From: the human T2T-CHM13v2.0 reference genome, Homo sapiens | DNA: 64,000 nucleotides | NCBI RefSeq assembly: GCF_009914755.1 | Contig: NC_060932.1 | Direction: 5' to 3' (one strand) | Shown: positions 7,870 through 64,000 of the stretch, one piece after another | Position numbering within the stretch: the first letter of the stretch is position 1 | How the letters are laid out: every line of letters begins with the position of its first letter | Position numbers and translations under genes: made by a program | The notes under the pieces: generated by a model | What the model saw: only the letters and a program-made list of their open reading frames with translations | Told to the model about the DNA's origin: nothing | Database searches by the model: none

Positions 7870-10070
7870 AAGTATTGATTGCAAATTCTCACAAAACCAG
7901 AAAACCACCCTTCCCCAATATATTAAGAGAAGAATGATTTATTCTGTAGAGAAATTGGACTATAGAGCTTGTGGACCAGGAACACCAGGCACAGAAGACG
8001 GCACGAATAAAAAGTCACTCTAAAAACAAAGGATTTAAATTAATGTCTATTGTTTGAAAAGCGTGTAAGAGCTTCACCCCTATTACCTCTCTTAGCTCCT
8101 AAAAGGCTGTCTCTCGGGCATATCTCCTACAAGAGATTAGAGGATCTTTCCCCAGAGAAATCTGCCCTAAAGAAAAAAAGACCAATTGATACTAATAGCT
8201 GACAGCTTTACAAAGAAAGAAGAGGAGGAGGAGCAGGAAGAGGATAAGGAAGAGTGGAAGGAGGGGGAGAAGGAGGGAGAGGACGAGGAGGAGACAGTTT
8301 TCACCTATCCCCTGCCTGCATACATAGAGACTCCAATCAGTGACTTGCTCTCAAATATAAACTTCTGCATAAAACTTCTATCAAAAGAAATACCAATAGA
8401 AAAAGTAGTGAGAAAACAGAGATAAGGCATAAAGAAGAAGAATACCTCAGAAAAAATGTAATTAATGGCTTCAGAAAGATGTTTGAAATGCTTGTTCTTT
8501 GGTGCCATAAAGAAATAGCACTTGGACATAAATTTAATTTTCTCAGCAAGGCCATTTTTATACTTTCTGCAGAAAGGGTACACTCGCCAGCAGTTTTGCC
8601 ACAAGAGTACACTGAACAAAAGAGACAGGGTCATTTATAACCTGATGCATCGACCTTACTGCTGTGTCTGGTTTCTATTGGCTGGAACAGGACTTCGCAT
8701 TCTGTATTTGTCTTGATTGGCTAACACCTTAGAACTTTCTAAAAGAGGCAAAGGCAGAGGAGAACAAAGGAAGGAGGAAGTAACTTGTGGAATGCTGAGA
8801 AAGGTAAAAACACCTTCAAATAAGAAGAGGAACAGGCTATGACCAAATGCTTGCTTGGACCAGTATAAACATGCCAGGGCAAATATTTAGGCTAAATTGT
8901 GGGAGCTAAGAACATAAAGTACATTGATTTCTTTATTACAGCTAGCAGATATTTAATAATGTTAGCACAGGTCTTTGAATAAATTTTGCTTCTAAGAAAA
9001 GTTACTATTTACTCCTAATTAGACGGAGACGAAAGTCTTTGAAGAGGAACCTCTACTTTACTTTTTACAAAGATGTCATGAAAAAGGAATGCTATTAAAA
9101 AATCGGAGACAAACAAAGGCTCCTAGAAATTAAAAATTAAGTTAGATCATCTGAAATTAAAATTTTAAATTAAGATGAGGAGATATAATGAAGTTTCCCA
9201 CTAAATAATATGAAAAAACAAAATTAAAAACCAAAAAAATGGAATGGACAATAACAGGGCCCACTGAATATCCAAATGATGAGTTCAAAAAGACCCTCAC
9301 GAAGACATAGACTCATGAAATTTCAGAACACTGAAGAAAATGAAAGAGGAAAAAGAAAAAGAAGAAAAAATATGTCATATCAAAAGGATCAGGTATCACA
9401 ATAGCTGTTGATCTTCTCATCAACAATGGAACAAAGACTTTAAATTTCTGAAAGGTGACAACTGGCAACCTAGAATTGCACATCTAGACAAATTATAAAG
9501 TGAATGTAAGATCAGATTAAAAACCACTTAAGAGAAAAAGAGCTCAAATATAATATTTCCCTGCATCTTTTCTCAGAAAGCAAAGAGTAGATGTGCTCCA
9601 CCAAAATGAAGGAATAAACTAAGAACTCTGAGGATGGCATGGGATCCAACACAGGAAAGAGGTAAAAGGAATTTTCATGATGATGGTGAAGGGAAGGATG
9701 ACAACTATGTAGCAGGAAGCCTAAATAAGAGATTCCTTGATGCAATTAATTATAGTAATAGGTATTTTATAGTTCTACACAAGAATATGAGAAGAATGAA
9801 TGATTTACACATAGAAAATTAAATCCAAAGGAGGGGGCAATTATTTGTAAGTCCAAGAAAATGTTAAAATGCATGCACAAGAAAAATGTACCACATTGCT
9901 TGGTTCAGCTGTGAACAAAATTTACCTAATCATAAAAATTGTAAACACTAAGTATTAATTAAACAAAATGTTGCAATTTGACTGGGAGTATGAAAGCAAG
10001 GAAAGGAATATGAGTGGGAGGGCAGTATAAGTGCTAAGTTCTCATTTTGCAGTTTACTATTTAGTGGGTA
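7870..10070 (+). mobile_element. Ancient HAL1/L1M ORF1-region remnant, interrupted by an LTR
   Basis: Degenerate motifs catgaaatttcagaacactg, caacctagaatt and gatgtgctccaccaaaatgaagga. Confidence 0.6.
8480..9069 (-). mobile_element. Solo LTR10C-like (HERV-I/ERV1) LTR
   Basis: Minus strand begins TGTAAAAAGTAAAGTAGAGGTTCCTCTTCAAAGAC; TG...CA termini; 590 bp; AAGA target-site duplication at 8476-8479 and 9070-9073. Confidence 0.85.
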
Positions 10071-59567: not shown

Positions 59568-60239
59568 ACAGGTAACATTTATCATCATCTATATACTTTT
59601 CAAAATTTCTGCGGAAATGTTTAATTTATAAAAGCAAAATAGCTTTTTAATATATGTTAAAAAACATAAAGAAGTAAATAACTATCCAAAAAGCTGCCAC
59701 ACAGATATAAGTACTATTAATGTTTTGGCAACATCCAAATATTTTTTTCTACATATATTCTGGATAGCATTTACTGAGCATTCACAATGTATAATGCACT
59801 GTGCTGAGAAGTCTTGTAAATATGTAAGATTTTATAATCTAATACTATGCTGCTATTGACCTGAGATACTGCATTTCTAACAAGTTTCCAGGTAATGCCA
59901 ATGCTGTTTTTCTGAAGGCCATACTTTTCAATAAAAGTGTTGTACATTAAAATATTGTTATATGGAGGTCTGTGAAGGGGAAACAGTGCAGGGAGGGGAA
60001 AGAAAAAAGGAGACTTGGGCTTTCCTTTCCTTGAGAATCAATTGTCAGATGCTCAGAATTCATTATGCTACATTAAAGCTCAATTGGGAGAAATAAGTAA
60101 ATTGTGGTCTCATAACATATTGGGGATAAATCCACTATGAAGGCAGACTACTTCCTCATTTGAAAGGTAGCAAAATTGAAGAACTTTAGTTACTGAGTCC
60201 TTCCCATGCATATTCCATTCTTCACTTAGTGTTTTAATT

Positions 60240-61450
60240 CCTGTTTCTTGCCTTTTCTACATCCATCCCATAGCATGTAAAGTATAATTATCTTCATTGT
60301 TGTATTTCCTAAATCATCAGTATTTGTTATAATTTCCTCTTTGACCGAAAGATTATTTAAGAACATTAAAAAAATTCCAAGTGTGTGATTTTTCAGGGTT
60401 GAAAATTATTATTTTCTAGGGTTTTTTTTTTTTTGTAATGTGGTCACGAGTGCTTTCTAGAAATATGTTAAAGTTTTCTCTACATTTGAGTATAAAATCA
60501 TTTAGAAATGCTTCAGGATAATTTGAAGAGAATGCAAAAATAAGGTAGAAAAGTAATATATATATTACACACATATTTTAACTATTTAACTACCTTTTAT
60601 CTCTTAACTTCCCATTTACTTGATTTATCAAAAGCTGTAACTGCGCTGGGTTGGTGGCTCACATTTGTAATCTTAGTGCTTTGGGAGGCCGAGGCAGGAG
60701 GATTACTTGAGCCTAGGAGTTGGGAGACTGCAGTGAGCTATGATGTTGCCACTGCATTCCACCCTAGGCTACAAAGCAAGACCCTCTTGTCTCTAAAAAA
60801 AGAAATCATAAATGTTGAAGTCATAGTCCAACATATTTTTTTGCTATATTCTCTTTAATAATACATACAGAAGGATTACTCAATAAATTTTAAATACATA
60901 AAATGCAACAATTTAAATGTACATGTTTTTAAATAGATGTATATCGATGTACATAAGTAAAACTATCACCCACATCAAGATCTGGAACATATATTTTATA
61001 TATTAATGTCATATTATTTACCATATAGTTTGTTAAATGTTACATCCTATATTGTATGTTTTACATAAAATGTCTTATGTTTAGATTTTAAGAAAAATGT
61101 TGCCATTTCTATGATTTATAGTTTCCATTATCTTTAAACTCTTTGATCATTTGTTTTATACAAATGTATCTCAGGTTAGAGATTGATTTTTGACCCAATT
61201 TCAATTGTAATAGGGCTATTTAACCAGTTTATAGGTCATCTGTACTGTCAATCTACTTTTTGCTAATTTTAGTGTCTTTTTGCTATTTTTCTTTTTACCA
61301 CTTCTTTTCCAAACATTGGAATGTATATATTCTATTTTTGTAGTTAACACTTATTTCCATGTCAAATTTACTTGGAACTATATGATTTACTTGGAACTAT
61401 ATGATGCAGTAACTACTGTTTTTCCCCATGCATCATGTACAGAAAATGAG
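60240..61450 (-). mobile_element. Heavily decayed L1M ORF2 5'/inter-ORF remnant with an inserted Alu monomer (about 60645-60802, +)
   Basis: Weak L1 endonuclease-region motifs tttcctctttgacc, tgtggtca.gag, atttgaagagaatg and tgttgaagtc, in the order expected downstream of the ORF1 at 61899-62696. Confidence 0.5.
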
Positions 61451-61898
61451 GATGTATCCACCCCCTCCCAAACCAGTGATTTGGAAGTTTCTTTACAGTA
61501 TCAGTAGTAACATGGACAAACTTGTTATTTTTTTCCTGCTATACTTAAAAATAAGGGAAATAAAACTGTACTGTTTTCCAATTGTCAGATTTGACATTTA
61601 GAATGTTATTTGTCAAATCTACAGTGACAAAGCCCTTTTACTTAGGTTTAGCTTAAGAACATGCGTATTTGTATCTACAATACTACATGCTAAAAATAAA
61701 ACAGTATTTGTCCAATATATTGAACATGTGGTATGCCCTTCCAGTTTAAACGTAAACTGAAATTTTACACCCAGCTTATGTTTCTATTTTTGTATTTAGT
61801 TTTAATGCCCTATACATAACAATTTAAACTTAATGCTCCTTAACTAGTTTTAATGCATACCATCAGTTCTTTCATACAATTGCCTCCCTATTCTTATT

Positions 61899-62696
61899 TT
61901 AATTCAGGTTCTCTGTTAGCTGCAGTAAATCCTTCAGCAAAATTTTCAGGGAAAGTTCTTGGTTGATATACTTTCCTAACCCCTGTATATCTAAGAATGT
62001 CTTCCAGTTTCCTTTGTAAAGAAATGATAACTTGGCAGAGTATATAATTCTTGGCTCAAAATTATTTTCCCTTAACACTCTAGATATTGTTCCACTGTCT
62101 TCTGGCATTTAGAATTGCAGGAGAAAAATCTGAGGTCAGCCTGACTTTTGCCCCTTTGTAAGTAACCTGCTTTCTCTGACTGGATGCTTGTAAAATGTTT
62201 CGTCTTTGAAATTCAAAAACGTCACCCGGATATGTCTAGATGCTGCTTTCTTTTCATTAAACTTTAAAGGTATCCTATGAGCCTTTTCCATTTGTAGATC
62301 TAGTTCGTTCTTCAATTCTGGAAAATTTTTTCAAGTAGATCCTTTATTGTTTCAGCTCCACTTGCTCTGTCCTCAGTTTCAGGTATTCCTATTATGCATA
62401 GATTGTATCTCCTGGACCGGCCCTCTAGATCTCTCTTTTTCTCCTCTTAATTTCTTTTCCCCTTTTCTCTGTATTCTGTGACAATTTGTCGTTTTGCACT
62501 TACTTCAGTAATTCGATTTTGTGGCCAATCCAGCGTGCGCCCTTCTGTTAACTCTCTCAACTTCCTGGTATTTTCCAAGCGCTCTAATAGTACCCTCTTT
62601 ATCATCGCGCATAGGTGTTTAAGCTCCTGTATTATATGATTCTCAATCCTTCTTATATCTTGTTTCCATCTCTATATCCGTTTCAAGAGGAGGCAT
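61899..62696 (-). pseudogene. Disabled LINE-1 ORF1p-like (L1TD1/Transposase_22-like) reading frame
   Basis: Manual translation gives a coiled-coil region, RDLEGRSRRYNLCIIGIPE, NFPELK, EKAHRIP, RHIRVTFLNFKD, QVTYKGAKVRLTSDFS, NARRQWNNI and RVLRENNFEPRIIYSAKLSF, ending at stop 61899-61901; about 4 frameshifts and 1 internal stop. Confidence 0.85.
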
Positions 62697-62899
62697 TTTC
62701 TCGATTATTTAGCGCTGCTCCTTTTTTCTCAGGGGCGGTATTACGACCTTGGAGACAATAAACATAATTTAATTCCACACAGCCCCAAACAGCCCAAAGA
62801 TTCCCATTGATAATTATCGACGGCTTTATTAAAATGCGTTATTTTTCTTTCTTACCTTTTCAGTTGCTTTTCTTAGAAACAGGGACCAAAATCAAAGAT

Positions 62900-63700
62900 T
62901 AAAGAGGTCCTCTGAAGCAGGGAATGAAATAGACGTTGAAAACTATTCCCGTTACGCCATCTCTGCGCGCCTCACGTCAGGGCCAAGAGCCTAGCGCGTA
63001 GCTTTATGGCTGACTCGGCTCTGGCGCTCTAGCCAATTCCGAGGCTGCAAACTCCGCTTCTCCGCTCGCAGTCTGGTTCCTCCCCTGCCGCCCCGCCCAT
63101 CACGGCAGGGTCACGGTAGCGCGCACGCGCAGCACCCCATTTAAGTTTCTCGTCTTTGCAGTGGCTTTGCTTAGATCCGGTGCCGCCTTGAAGGCGGGGC
63201 TGGGTCCCAGCCGTAGCCAATGGAGCCCCGGGTGAGGGTTGAGGGGTGGAAGGTGCCTACTAGCCGGTGCAGGTTTCTTCTAGCGCGTGTGCTGGGGTAC
63301 CTGGTCGTCATGGAGGCGGTATTGACCGAAGAGCTTGATGAGGAAGAGCAGCTGCTGAGAAGGCATCGCAAAGAGAAGAAGGAGTTGCAAGGTGAGGCGG
63401 AAGGAAGTGGGAATCTGGAAGCCGCCGCGACTGGGGGAAGGGCGCGTGGCGGGTCGATTCTGGGGAATCTCAAGGCGTGACTTATCTGGATCACCCTAGA
63501 CTTCCCCTAGTAGCAAGTGGCCTCTTCTCTCTTCACCTACCCCGGCGGCCCTTTAATTCCCCAACCTTCAGAGGCTTCCCCTTCTGAGGCCTGCGGCGTG
63601 CCCCCTACCCCGCGCCGCCGCCGGGGTGCAGGTGTCTGAAAATACCTAGAAGCCGCCGTCTTGGTCCGCTCCCAAACCCACGATGCCTCCCTTTTCTATA
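62900..63700. promoter_or_regulatory. CpG island / bidirectional promoter of OTUD6B and OTUD6B-AS1
   Basis: High CpG density; YY1-like CGCCAT 62955-62960; CRE/E-box-like TCACGTCA 62972-62979; CCAAT at 63033-63037 and 63217-63221; GC box 63088-63098; NRF1-like GCGCGCACGCGCA 63119-63131. Confidence 0.88.
63310..63391 (+). CDS. OTUD6B: OTUD6B coding exon 1 (MEAVLTEELDEEEQLLRRHRKEKKELQ); an in-frame upstream ATG at 63220 would add 30 aa
   Basis: Translation matches the recalled OTUD6B deubiquitinase N-terminus; strong Kozak GTCATGG; donor CAAG|GTGAGG after 63391; lies in a CpG island. Confidence 0.94.
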
Positions 63701-64000
63701 CCTGCCCCAGTTACCGATACTTGTCCCTAATGGGTGTATTTTGAATGGACCCGCCTCAGTTTAGGAGGTTCAGAAAGGATACCGGAAAGATTTAAAACTG
63801 GCTACAGTCAGGTTTTTTTCCTTCTCTTATCTCGCCAAACAACCGAAACATATTCAAGATTTTGTTAATGAAGTTTTTTTTTTTTTTGGTCTCAGCTTTA
63901 TCTGGGATCTTCTCTCTCTGTAGCTGCCTGTTACGTGATGACTCTTTCTTCCATAATTACTTTTTCTGTACCCTTCGCCCGTTACCATCCCCTTATTGGT

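What the first reader, a model, noticed from the sequence alone, without database searches (positions are those of the whole stretch)
61899..62696. OTUD6B-AS1 region hides a near-complete L1 ORF1p-like gene relic: a candidate second L1TD1-type domestication
Seen: manual minus-strand translation reads MPPLETDIEM/KQDIRRIENHIIQELKHLCAMIKRVLLERLENTRKLRELTEGRTLDWPQNRITEVSAKRQIVTEYREKGKRN*EEKKRDLEGRSRRYNLCIIGIPETEDRASGAETIKDLLEK/NFPELKNELDLQMEKAHRIPLKFNEKKAASRHIRVTFLNFKDE/NILQASSQRKQVTYKGAKVRLTSDFSPAILNARRQWNNI/RVLRENNFEPRIIYSAKLSFLYKGNWKTFLDIQGLGKYINQELSLKILLKDLLQLTENLN*. That is about 266 codons with four frameshifts (about 62666, 62327, 62199, 62082) and one stop (62447-62449). Known: these motifs are the coiled-coil, RRM (DLExRSRRxNLxIxGIPE, AHR, RHIxVxF) and CTD (ARRQW, PRIxYxAKLSF) of LINE-1 ORF1p, and L1TD1 is the established domesticated ORF1 gene. 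Inference: the frame is far better preserved than the apparently contiguous ORF2-like remnant (60240-61450) and the HAL1-like ORF1 remnant at 9100-9620. It lies in sense orientation about 0.5 kb from a CpG-island promoter. This pattern suggests long purifying selection followed by recent loss, so the 'lncRNA' may be a unitary pseudogene whose orthologue is intact in other mammals.
Basis: partly seen in the sequence, partly recalled or inferred. Interest (0 to 1): 0.9.

Follow-up and report, generated by a model that had tools for sequence, protein, structure and literature searches.

The report
Dead human copy of ORF1-derived gene
The human lncRNA OTUD6B-AS1 carries the broken remains of a protein-coding gene that was once built from a LINE-1 ORF1 and is still intact in the slow loris, which would make it a second L1TD1-like domesticated gene.

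Summary
The ORF1p-like reading at window 61899-62696 (minus strand) is real. With an intact relative as guide, it aligns end to end, from start codon to stop codon, at 76.7% amino-acid identity. It is broken by six frameshifts, not four frameshifts plus a stop.

It is single-copy in the human genome. No other locus exceeds 50% protein identity, and its N-terminal third matches nothing else.

A 273-aa intact protein of Nycticebus coucang is its orthologue. NCBI files that protein under PIP4P2, the neighbouring gene. Six further intact relatives of 255-317 aa exist in unnamed records, and several broken ones.

The pairwise divergence among intact members would have left an open frame in about 0.2% of neutral simulations. 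Divergence is concentrated in the linker, and known ORF1p RNA-binding motifs are invariant.

This is a unitary pseudogene of an undescribed LINE-1 ORF1-derived host gene, now transcribed as a lncRNA.

Not confirmed: the adjoining "ORF2 remnant". Oligomer state and function are inferred only. Whether it arose independently of L1TD1 is unresolved.

The parts
61899..62696 (-). Whole relic of the ORF1-derived coding sequence. The ATG is at 62696-62694, the last codon at 61904-61902, and the TAA stop at 61901-61899.
   Evidence: It aligns to all 273 residues of the intact loris protein, with 201 of 262 aligned codons identical.
62534..62684 (-). N-terminal long helix (loris residues 5-55). This part is specific to the family and has no other match in the human genome.
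   Evidence: The AlphaFold2 model has a helix at 5-55 with block pLDDT 86-94. The human 74-aa piece and P0016 hit only this locus.
62414..62530 (-). Basic, purine-rich linker (loris 57-99). It is predicted disordered and is the fastest-evolving part. It holds two of the six frameshifts.
   Evidence: One search gives pLDDT below 50 for residues 57-99. One search gives mean pairwise identity 34.5%.
62128..62410 (-). RRM-like domain (Pfam Transposase_22, loris 101-197).
   Evidence: Foldseek to 2w7a gives TM 0.85 and rmsd 2.0 A.
61935..62115 (-). C-terminal domain (Pfam Tnp_22_dsRBD, loris 202-262). In human it carries ARRQW and YSAKLS.
   Evidence: Foldseek to 2jrb gives TM 0.87 and rmsd 1.5 A.
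62660..62660 (-). Frameshift 1. It stops the frame that starts at the ATG after 17 codons. It is not shared by the close relatives P0010-P0012.
62491..62491 (-). Frameshift 2. It is shared with the unnamed close relative P0010, whose shifted reading ends at the same stop.
62447..62448 (-). Frameshift 3.
62328..62329 (-). Frameshift 4.
   Evidence: P0002, P0006 and P0009 read across this site.
62197..62198 (-). Frameshift 5, in an A-rich KDKDK tract. P0006 and P0009 are also shifted here, but into a different frame.
   Evidence: plus reading of the frames.
62082..62082 (-). Frameshift 6.
   Evidence: P0002, P0009 and P0025 read across this site.
62498..62503 (-). GTAAGT splice donor of OTUD6B-AS1 exon 2. 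It is made of old codons Val-Ser inside the former coding sequence.
   Evidence: Sequence. Exon end 62504 comes from the hub's gene table. P0011 and P0012 change sequence after ...RITE, as expected for the same splice.
62856..63114 (-). OTUD6B-AS1 exon 1, the presumed old 5' UTR exon. It starts in the CpG island shared head to head with OTUD6B, whose start is at 63269.
   Evidence: Hub gene table. GC is 0.58-0.63 over 62900-63800.

Best explanation
Window 61899-62696 (minus strand) is the dead human copy (a unitary pseudogene) of a single-copy host gene derived from the ORF1 of an ancient LINE-1, or of an ORF1-only HAL1-type element.

The intact protein, as seen in slow loris and six unnamed records, has four parts:
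- a family-specific N-terminal long helix;
- a disordered basic linker;
- an ORF1p-type RRM;
- an ORF1p-type C-terminal domain.

The motifs that human ORF1p needs for RNP formation are kept. I infer that it is a cytoplasmic single-stranded-RNA-binding or chaperone-type protein. I also infer that it is expressed from the CpG-island promoter it shares head to head with OTUD6B.

In the lineage to humans, constraint was lost and six frameshifts accumulated. At least one of them predates the split from an unnamed close relative. The promoter stayed active. A GTAAGT inside the old coding sequence now serves as a splice donor, and the transcript persists as the lncRNA OTUD6B-AS1.

Shown: the homology, single-copy status, the intact relatives, the breaks, and the signs of constraint. 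Inferred: RNA binding, oligomerisation, expression pattern, biological role and time of loss.
For: 1. Orthologue.
- P0001 is 273 aa, from Nycticebus coucang, and NCBI names it 'PIP4P2 isoform X1' without a low-quality flag.
- It is 76% identical to the human C-terminal piece.
- It is colinear with the relic from start to stop, with 201 of 262 codons identical.
- PIP4P2 is the next gene on the same strand, by the hub's gene table.

2. Discrete family.
- A profile search gave 16 proteins at E<=0.001 among 8000 scored.
- The seven intact members score 381-542 bits. The next unrelated hits, bat L1 ORF1 proteins, score 160-183 bits.
- Only the loris protein comes from NCBI or UniRef.

3. Single copy in the human genome.
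- DNA search: best non-self match about 70% over about 260 nt (40 of 94 candidates scored).
- C-terminal piece: best non-self match 45-50% (150 of 19,384 candidates scored).
- N-terminal piece: self only (8 of 8 scored).
- P0016: only this locus (2 of 2 scored).

4. Constraint.
- Intact members are 46-91% identical to each other.
- In neutral simulation, 58.7% amino-acid identity comes with a mean of 6.5 stops and P(no stop) of 0.002, before counting indels.
- The linker is 34.5% identical against 74-75% for the RRM and C-terminal domain. Fisher p is 2e-7 and 2e-10.
- Replacements are milder than neutral. Mean BLOSUM62 is -0.18 to +0.24, against -0.50 (sd 0.16) in simulation.
- NLR, the RR of ARRQW, and YPA.L are invariant in the six intact members of alignment A2, P0022 not included. 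The first R of the stretch aligned with REKG is also invariant there; the rest of that motif differs (RxRK). They align to human ORF1p. Mutations of those ORF1p motifs abolish retrotransposition and reduce RNP or foci formation (PMC2951350, passages).

5. Relaxation in human.
- 12 of 91 covered columns that are invariant in all seven intact members are changed, including NLR to NLC and YPAKLS to YSAKLS.
- The human end branch is 0.19 against 0.066 for loris.

6. Fold.
- Pfam RRM and C-terminal domains are found in 6 of 6 members scanned and in P0022.
- The PDB profile hit to 2ykp has E 6e-56.
- Foldseek gives TM 0.85 to 2w7a and 0.87 to 2jrb.
Against: - No orthologue DNA was available. There is therefore no dN/dS, no genomic check of synteny beyond NCBI's gene name for the loris model, and no species names for the six other intact proteins.
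- Within the primate-like branch, only the loris sequence is intact. P0006, P0009 and P0025 look broken and P0002 is partial.
- Relative-rate tests for loris against human are mixed: 4 vs 12 changes, p 0.077; 7 vs 22, p 0.008 with P0003 as outgroup; 14 vs 21, p 0.31 with P0005.
- Family monophyly has 88/97 support in one tree. It falls under 80 when two rows are left out, although the constrained tree is then slightly better.
- The BLOSUM test leans on a MAFFT alignment, which favours similar residues.
- A crude heptad test on the N-terminal helix did not beat shuffles. Between 196 and 1582 of 2000 shuffles reached the observed value.
- Pfam Tnp_22_trimer is not matched in 0 of 6 members. The bat L1 ORF1 control also lacks it.
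Confidence: 0.8

Rival explanations
1. An ordinary ancient L1 or HAL1 insertion that decayed neutrally and merely happens to be well preserved. On this view the open frames elsewhere are luck or annotation artefacts.
For: - The sequence is ORF1-derived.
- HAL1 elements encode only ORF1p and arose several times in mammals (PMC5753468, passage). That would fit the missing ORF2.
- The finding was picked because it stood out, which is a selection effect.
Against: - Seven full-length open frames exist at 46-91% mutual identity, where neutral simulation leaves 0.2% or fewer open.
- Divergence is concentrated in the linker (p 2e-7 and 2e-10).
- RNA-binding motifs are invariant.
- The locus is shared by human and a strepsirrhine, yet is open in the loris.
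Confidence: 0.04
2. The unnamed intact proteins are copies of a still-active ORF1-only retrotransposon family in other animals, not orthologues at the OTUD6B locus. Selection would then be acting for the element, not the host.
For: - The species and genomic places of P0003, P0004, P0005, P0007, P0008 and P0022 are unknown.
- All come from short contigs of 912-2415 nt.
- HAL1 families arose repeatedly (PMC5753468, passage).
Against: - Each 90%-identity cluster holds only 1-3 member sequences on 1-7 contigs. An active family should give many.
- Five of the six share the exact start MPPLET with loris and human (P0005 begins nine residues in), and all six share the end of the protein.
- The loris copy is intact at the syntenic gene.
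- No copy of the N-terminal part exists elsewhere in the human genome.
Confidence: 0.08
3. The gene is real but is not an independent domestication. It would be an ancient duplicate of one ORF1-like half of L1TD1, or L1TD1 would descend from it.
For: - The best human match of the loris protein is the L1TD1 C-terminal exon, at 44% identity and 202 bits. L1 ORF1 copies give 38-41% and 187 bits or less.
- AU tests do not reject family plus both L1TD1 halves (p 0.37) or family plus the C-terminal half (p 0.35).
Against: - The same tests do not reject grouping the family with mammalian L1 ORF1 either (p 0.13).
- The free tree leaves the L1TD1 halves unresolved.
- The locus is on another chromosome, and the N-terminal part has no detectable match in the L1TD1 region.
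- Deep nodes of ORF1 trees are reported as poorly resolved (PMC4161310, passage).
Confidence: 0.2
4. The human locus is not only a dead gene. Fragments of the old frame may still be translated into short peptides with a function of their own.
For: - Human transcripts carry ATG-started ORFs of 17, 37, 52, 51 and 69 aa made of relic pieces.
- Two papers list OTUD6B-AS1 among lncRNAs reported to encode microproteins (PMC6735797 and PMC11567935, one passage each).
Against: - It is unknown whether any peptide maps to the relic.
- The first ATG gives only 17 residues.
- The human sequence has changed 12 of 91 otherwise invariant positions.
Confidence: 0.07

Closest known systems
L1TD1 (LINE-1 type transposase domain-containing protein 1)
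   Same: - It is a host gene whose coding sequence comes from L1 ORF1.
- It has the RRM and C-terminal domains.
- It is the best human match of the loris protein, at 44% identity.
- It was repeatedly lost in mammals and evolves fast (PMC4161310, abstract and passages).
   Different: - L1TD1 lies between INADL and KANK4 on chromosome 1 and has two ORF1-like halves (PMC4161310, passages). This gene lies head to head with OTUD6B on chromosome 8 and has one unit of about 270 aa with its own N-terminal helix.
- L1TD1 is intact in human, while this gene is broken.
- Papers call L1TD1 the only known such gene (PMC4161310 and PMC11014241, abstracts).
LINE-1 ORF1p
   Same: - The domain order is the same: helix, linker, RRM, C-terminal domain.
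- The PDB profile hit to 2ykp has E 6e-56. Foldseek TM is 0.85 and 0.87 on the two domains.
- The NLR, RR and YPA.L motifs are kept, and the first R of the REKG-aligned stretch.
   Different: - It is single-copy.
- There is no ORF2 downstream.
- Identity to human L1 ORF1 is only about 40%.
- The helix is short, about 50 residues, and has no Tnp_22_trimer match, whereas a human L1 copy matches at E 4.5e-31.
HAL1 (half-L1) elements
   Same: They encode ORF1p only and arose several times in mammals (PMC5753468, passage). They are a possible source, given that no ORF2 trace is present.
   Different: - HAL1 is a repeat family, whereas this locus has no detectable copy elsewhere in the human genome.
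- No HAL1 reference sequence was available, so derivation from HAL1 was not tested.
ORF1-derived alternative exons (Lyosin/MYL4, L1-RFX5, NUP42-L1, USP4-L1)
   Same: These are L1 ORF1 sequences kept as coding exons at fixed loci. Some show dN/dS of 0.3-0.4 (PMC12129022, passages and section 11).
   Different: - Those are fusions with host protein exons. Here the ORF1-derived frame is the whole protein.
- That paper's main text does not mention PIP4P2, TMEM55A or OTUD6B.
lncRNAs that are fossils of lost protein-coding genes
   Same: In both cases a gene lost its coding capacity while its promoter and transcript survived (PMC5577775 and PMC10195156, abstracts).
   Different: - The lost gene here was itself transposon-derived and unannotated.
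- OTUD6B does not occur in either main text. Their supplementary lists could not be seen.

Membership tests
LINE-1 ORF1p protein family (Pfam) | RRM-like domain PF02994 (Transposase_22) | tested here: met
   6 of 6 members of A2 match, with best E 3.5e-22. P0022 matches at E 2.7e-20. One human piece scores E 1.7e-4, 0.1 bit under the cut-off.
LINE-1 ORF1p protein family (Pfam) | C-terminal domain PF17490 (Tnp_22_dsRBD) | tested here: met
   6 of 6 members match. The human piece scores E 2.3e-12.
LINE-1 ORF1p protein family (Pfam) | Trimerising coiled coil (PF17489, Tnp_22_trimer) | tested here: inconclusive
   0 of 6 members match at E<=0.01. A human L1 copy matches at E 4.5e-31, but the bat L1 ORF1 and L1TD1 controls do not. 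The model shows a helix at 5-55. The heptad test was not better than shuffles.
Active or fossil LINE-1 element | ORF2 (endonuclease and reverse transcriptase) downstream of ORF1 | tested here: not met
   No match in 59900-61898 by genome DNA search, by tblastn with 443-475 aa of ORF2, or by Pfam on 12 ORFs.
Active or fossil LINE-1 element | Many related copies in the genome | tested here: not met
   Best non-self match is 45-50% protein identity. The N-terminal part is unique. Only part of the candidates was scored.
Domesticated transposon gene | Orthologues at the same genomic place in several species | tested here: inconclusive
   The loris model is named by NCBI as an isoform of PIP4P2, the neighbour of the human relic. 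The places of the six unnamed intact proteins are unknown.
Domesticated transposon gene | Open frame kept over long divergence | tested here: met
   Seven intact proteins of 255-317 aa are 46-91% identical to each other. Neutral P(no stop) is 0.002 at 58.7% identity.
Domesticated transposon gene | dN/dS below 1 | not testable with these tools
   No DNA of any orthologue could be fetched. Protein-level proxies point to constraint.
L1TD1 orthologue | Location between INADL and KANK4, with two ORF1-like halves | tested here: not met
   The relic is on contig C8. L1TD1 is at C1:62.08-62.09 Mb and has two ORF1-like frames.
Unitary pseudogene | Disabling mutations, no intact paralogue in the genome, and an intact orthologue elsewhere | tested here: met
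   Six frameshifts are present. The frame from the first ATG ends after 17 codons. The nearest human relative is L1TD1 at 44%. The loris protein is intact.

The most novel reading that the evidence does not exclude
This may be an old, possibly eutherian-wide, second ORF1-derived host gene. It would bind L1 or other RNPs as a restriction factor or cofactor and, like L1TD1, would be lost again and again. Its loss in the anthropoid stem would have left behind a much-studied human lncRNA. On this reading, part of what is ascribed to OTUD6B-AS1 would be the afterlife of a dead gene, and primates with and without the gene would be a natural experiment on L1 control.
Probability: 0.2. Interest if true: 0.9.

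Novelty: new member of a known kind. Interest (0 to 1): 0.78.

Why it matters
Papers seen here describe L1TD1 as the only known host gene made from L1 ORF1 (PMC4161310 and PMC11014241, abstracts). A second one would matter for several reasons.
- It would show that ORF1 domestication is not a one-off.
- Its ORF1p layout is simpler and more complete than that of L1TD1.
- Its loss in the human lineage would give a comparative handle on what such proteins do.
- It would explain the origin, promoter and splice pattern of OTUD6B-AS1.
- It points to a blind spot: repeat masking before gene prediction probably hides such genes. That last point is my inference.

No paper linking OTUD6B-AS1, OTUD6B or PIP4P2 to ORF1 turned up in the searches. 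Supplementary tables could not be read.

Tried and rejected
- **ORF2 remnant at 60240-61450.** Nothing was found by three methods.
- **Young L1 insertion.** Rejected, because there is no close copy in the genome.
- **Heptad periodicity of the N-terminal helix.** Not better than shuffles.
- **Three-copy complex prediction of residues 1-60.** Oligomer state is therefore untested.
- **Profile search of the human genome with alignment A4.** The tool does not take alignments for this genome. The single protein P0016 was used instead.
- **ESM Atlas.** It returned only generic L1 ORF1 clusters.
- **Supplements of PMC6735797.** Closed.
- **Bao and Jurka 2010 on HAL1.** Not held.
- **N-terminal search.** Three of the 13 hits (P0014, P0019, P0021) are 414-1123 aa with 7-13 matched stretches. 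They were not fetched; they look like generic coiled-coil matches.
- **N-terminal-only records.** P0013, P0015-P0018 and P0020 (80-103 aa) were not counted as intact or as broken, because why they end in the linker is unknown.
- **Deciding between independent domestication and kinship with L1TD1.** The AU tests reject neither.
Full report
**What is in the sequence**

Two of the five in-frame pieces hit LINE-1 ORF1 Pfam domains. Transposase_22 scored E 1.7e-4 at 22.3 bits against a cut-off of 22.4. Tnp_22_dsRBD scored E 2.3e-12. Three pieces hit nothing.

**The locus stands alone in the human genome**

- The 798 bases match themselves. Otherwise they match only short stretches at about 70% identity, at most 79% over 75 bases (40 of 94 candidates scored).
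- The 69-aa C-terminal piece has no other match above 50% identity (150 of 19,384 candidates scored).
- The 74-aa N-terminal piece matches only itself (8 of 8 scored).

So this is not a member of any young L1 subfamily.

**The decisive result: intact relatives**

- The C-terminal piece found P0001, a 273-aa protein of Nycticebus coucang at 76% identity. NCBI names it 'type 2 phosphatidylinositol 4,5-bisphosphate 4-phosphatase isoform X1'. That is PIP4P2, the next gene on the same strand as the relic. The loris is a strepsirrhine primate.
- Searching with P0001, and then with an alignment of members, gave six more intact proteins: P0003, P0004, P0005, P0007, P0008 and P0022. They are 255-317 aa long and come from unnamed records.
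- All start MPPLET, except that P0005 starts nine residues in. All end within a few residues of each other.
- In the profile search the seven intact members score 381-542 bits. The next proteins, bat L1 ORF1s, score 160-183 bits.
- Other records are partial or look broken: P0002, P0006, P0009 and P0025.
- An exhaustive search with the human N-terminal piece gave 13 hits.
  - Three are close relatives at 85-89% identity (P0010-P0012).
  - Six are diverged N-terminal fragments (P0013, P0015-P0018, P0020). All start MPPLE, or MAPLE in P0017.
  - P0006 also appeared.
  - Three long repetitive proteins were not examined.
- P0016, one of those fragments, hits only this locus in the human genome.

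**How the human copy is broken**

- A frameshift-aware alignment to P0001 runs from the ATG at 62696 to the last codon at 61902. It has 262 aligned codons, 201 of them identical (76.7%).
- There are six frameshifts, near 62660, 62491, 62448, 62329, 62198 and 62082, and no in-frame stop.
- P0010 reads that same shifted stretch and ends at the same place. The second shift therefore predates the split from that unnamed relative. P0010-P0012 read through the first site.
- From the human ATG the frame closes after 17 codons.
- Of 91 covered columns that are invariant in all seven intact proteins, the human copy has changed 12. These include NLR to NLC and YPAKLS to YSAKLS.
- Its end branch is 0.19, against 0.066 for loris.
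- Relative-rate counts of loris-only against human-only changes are mixed: 4 vs 12 (p 0.077), 7 vs 22 (p 0.008, outgroup P0003) and 14 vs 21 (p 0.31, outgroup P0005).
- Against P0009 and P0006, the loris is clearly slower, with p 0.003 and 0.001.
- Six frameshifts in about 800 bases suggest some tens of millions of years of neutral decay. This rests on recalled primate rates, not on a call.

**Was the gene under selection?**

No orthologue DNA could be fetched, so dN/dS was not computed. Three proxies were used.

- *Open frames.* Intact members are 46-91% identical to each other. Neutral substitution from the human in-frame codons down to 58.7% amino-acid identity gave a mean of 6.5 stops and an open frame in 0.2% of 4000 runs. 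Indels were ignored.
- *Uneven divergence.* The linker is 34.5% identical, against 74.5% for the RRM and 74.0% for the C-terminal domain. Fisher p is 2e-7 for loris against P0003 and 2e-10 for loris against P0022.
- *Mild replacements.* Mean BLOSUM62 of replaced pairs is -0.18 to +0.24, against -0.50 (sd 0.16) in simulation. The aligner may flatter this figure.

The ORF1p motifs NLR, RR(261-262) and YPAKLS abolish retrotransposition and reduce RNP or foci formation when mutated, as does REKG (PMC2951350, passages). NLR, the RR of ARRQW and YPA.L align to invariant residues of the family; of the REKG-aligned stretch only the first R is shared, the family having RxRK.

**Fold**

- The loris model has mean pLDDT 72. 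It shows a helix at 5-55, a disordered stretch at 57-99, then an RRM and a C-terminal domain.
- Foldseek ranks human ORF1p structures first. TM is 0.85 with rmsd 2.0 A to 2w7a, and 0.87 with rmsd 1.5 A to 2jrb.
- The PDB profile search gives 2ykp at E 6e-56.
- Trimerisation is open.
  - There is no Tnp_22_trimer match in 0 of 6 members. The bat L1 ORF1 and L1TD1 controls lack it too.
  - A heptad test was negative.
  - The complex tool never ran.

**Relations**

- The loris protein's best match in the human genome is the C-terminal exon of L1TD1, at 44% identity and 202 bits. L1 ORF1 copies follow at 38-41% (141 of 51,023 candidates scored).
- In a 19-row tree, the family with the human relic is one clade (88/97). 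It is separate from a clade of human and bat L1 ORF1 (93/98). The L1TD1 halves are unresolved.
- Without two rows, the family node drops under 80. The constrained tree is then 0.17 log units better.
- AU tests reject neither family plus L1TD1 (p 0.37 and 0.35) nor family plus mammalian L1 (p 0.13).
- Independent domestication is therefore likely but not shown.

**Surroundings**

- No ORF2 trace lies downstream. The source may have been an ORF1-only HAL1-type element (PMC5753468, passage), or ORF2 may have decayed away.
- By the hub's gene table, OTUD6B-AS1 exon 1 (62856-63114) starts in the CpG island shared with OTUD6B (GC 0.58-0.63).
- Exon 2 (62504-62747) holds the ATG and the first 64 codons.
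- Its GTAAGT donor (62503-62498) is made of the old Val-Ser codons. Loris and the other relatives that cover this site have Asn at the Ser position, apart from Glu in P0003. The strong donor may therefore be a derived change, which is an inference.
- A second annotated transcript keeps the whole relic in one exon (60836-62747).

**Literature**

- L1TD1 is called the only known L1 ORF1-derived gene (PMC4161310, abstract and discussion passage; PMC11014241, abstract).
- A 2025 screen of RefSeq for ORF1p-like isoforms reports MYL4, RFX5, NUP42 and USP4. Its main text has no PIP4P2, TMEM55A or OTUD6B (PMC12129022, section 11 and term search).
- The one paper holding both 'OTUD6B-AS1' and 'LINE-1' was seen only as a listing.
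- Two papers on lncRNAs as relics of lost genes do not mention OTUD6B in their main text.
- Supplements were closed, so lists there may bear on novelty.

**Verdict**

The locus is a unitary pseudogene of an undescribed ORF1-derived host gene. It is a new member of the kind so far represented by L1TD1.

Noticed in passing
It is a 28-aa tblastn match to the C-terminal domain, at 39% identity and E 0.003. It is far more decayed than the relic under study.
   Followed up: partly
window about 60645-60819: An Alu-like repeat lies inside the long alternative exon of OTUD6B-AS1. It has many genomic matches at 78-86% identity. It is the only repeated DNA detected between 59900 and 61898.
   Followed up: partly
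window 62498-62503 (-): The exon-2 splice donor GTAAGT is built from former codons Val-Ser. Human and P0010-P0012 have Ser there, while loris and the other relatives covering the site have Asn (Glu in P0003). The consensus donor may have arisen by that change.
   Followed up: partly
window 61899-62696 (-), in the annotated transcripts: Relic fragments form ATG-started ORFs of 17, 37, 52, 51 and 69 aa. Two papers list OTUD6B-AS1 among lncRNAs said to encode microproteins. The peptide lists were in closed supplements.
   Followed up: partly
proteins P0013, P0015-P0018, P0020: Six diverged N-terminal-only records of 80-103 aa all end in the purine-rich linker. P0013 ends at the same out-of-frame stop context as human. 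The cause could be contig ends, frameshifts in a slippery tract, or splicing; it is unknown.
   Followed up: no
protein P0022: This intact member of 317 aa has a linker expanded by an Ala/Gln/Ser-rich low-complexity insert. P0008 is also very Ala/Gly/Arg-rich, which suggests GC-rich host genomes.
   Followed up: no
protein P0001 (loris): NCBI files this pure ORF1-like protein as isoform X1 of PIP4P2. That suggests a read-through transcript model from the OTUD6B-side promoter into PIP4P2, and a mis-named product.
   Followed up: no
window 61366-61405: A perfect tandem duplication of a 19-base unit (2.1 copies) lies downstream of the relic.
   Followed up: no
A-rich KDKDK tract near window 62197-62210 (-): Human, P0006 and P0009 are all frameshifted in this tract but into different frames. 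It may be a slippage hotspot, or error-prone in assemblies.
   Followed up: partly
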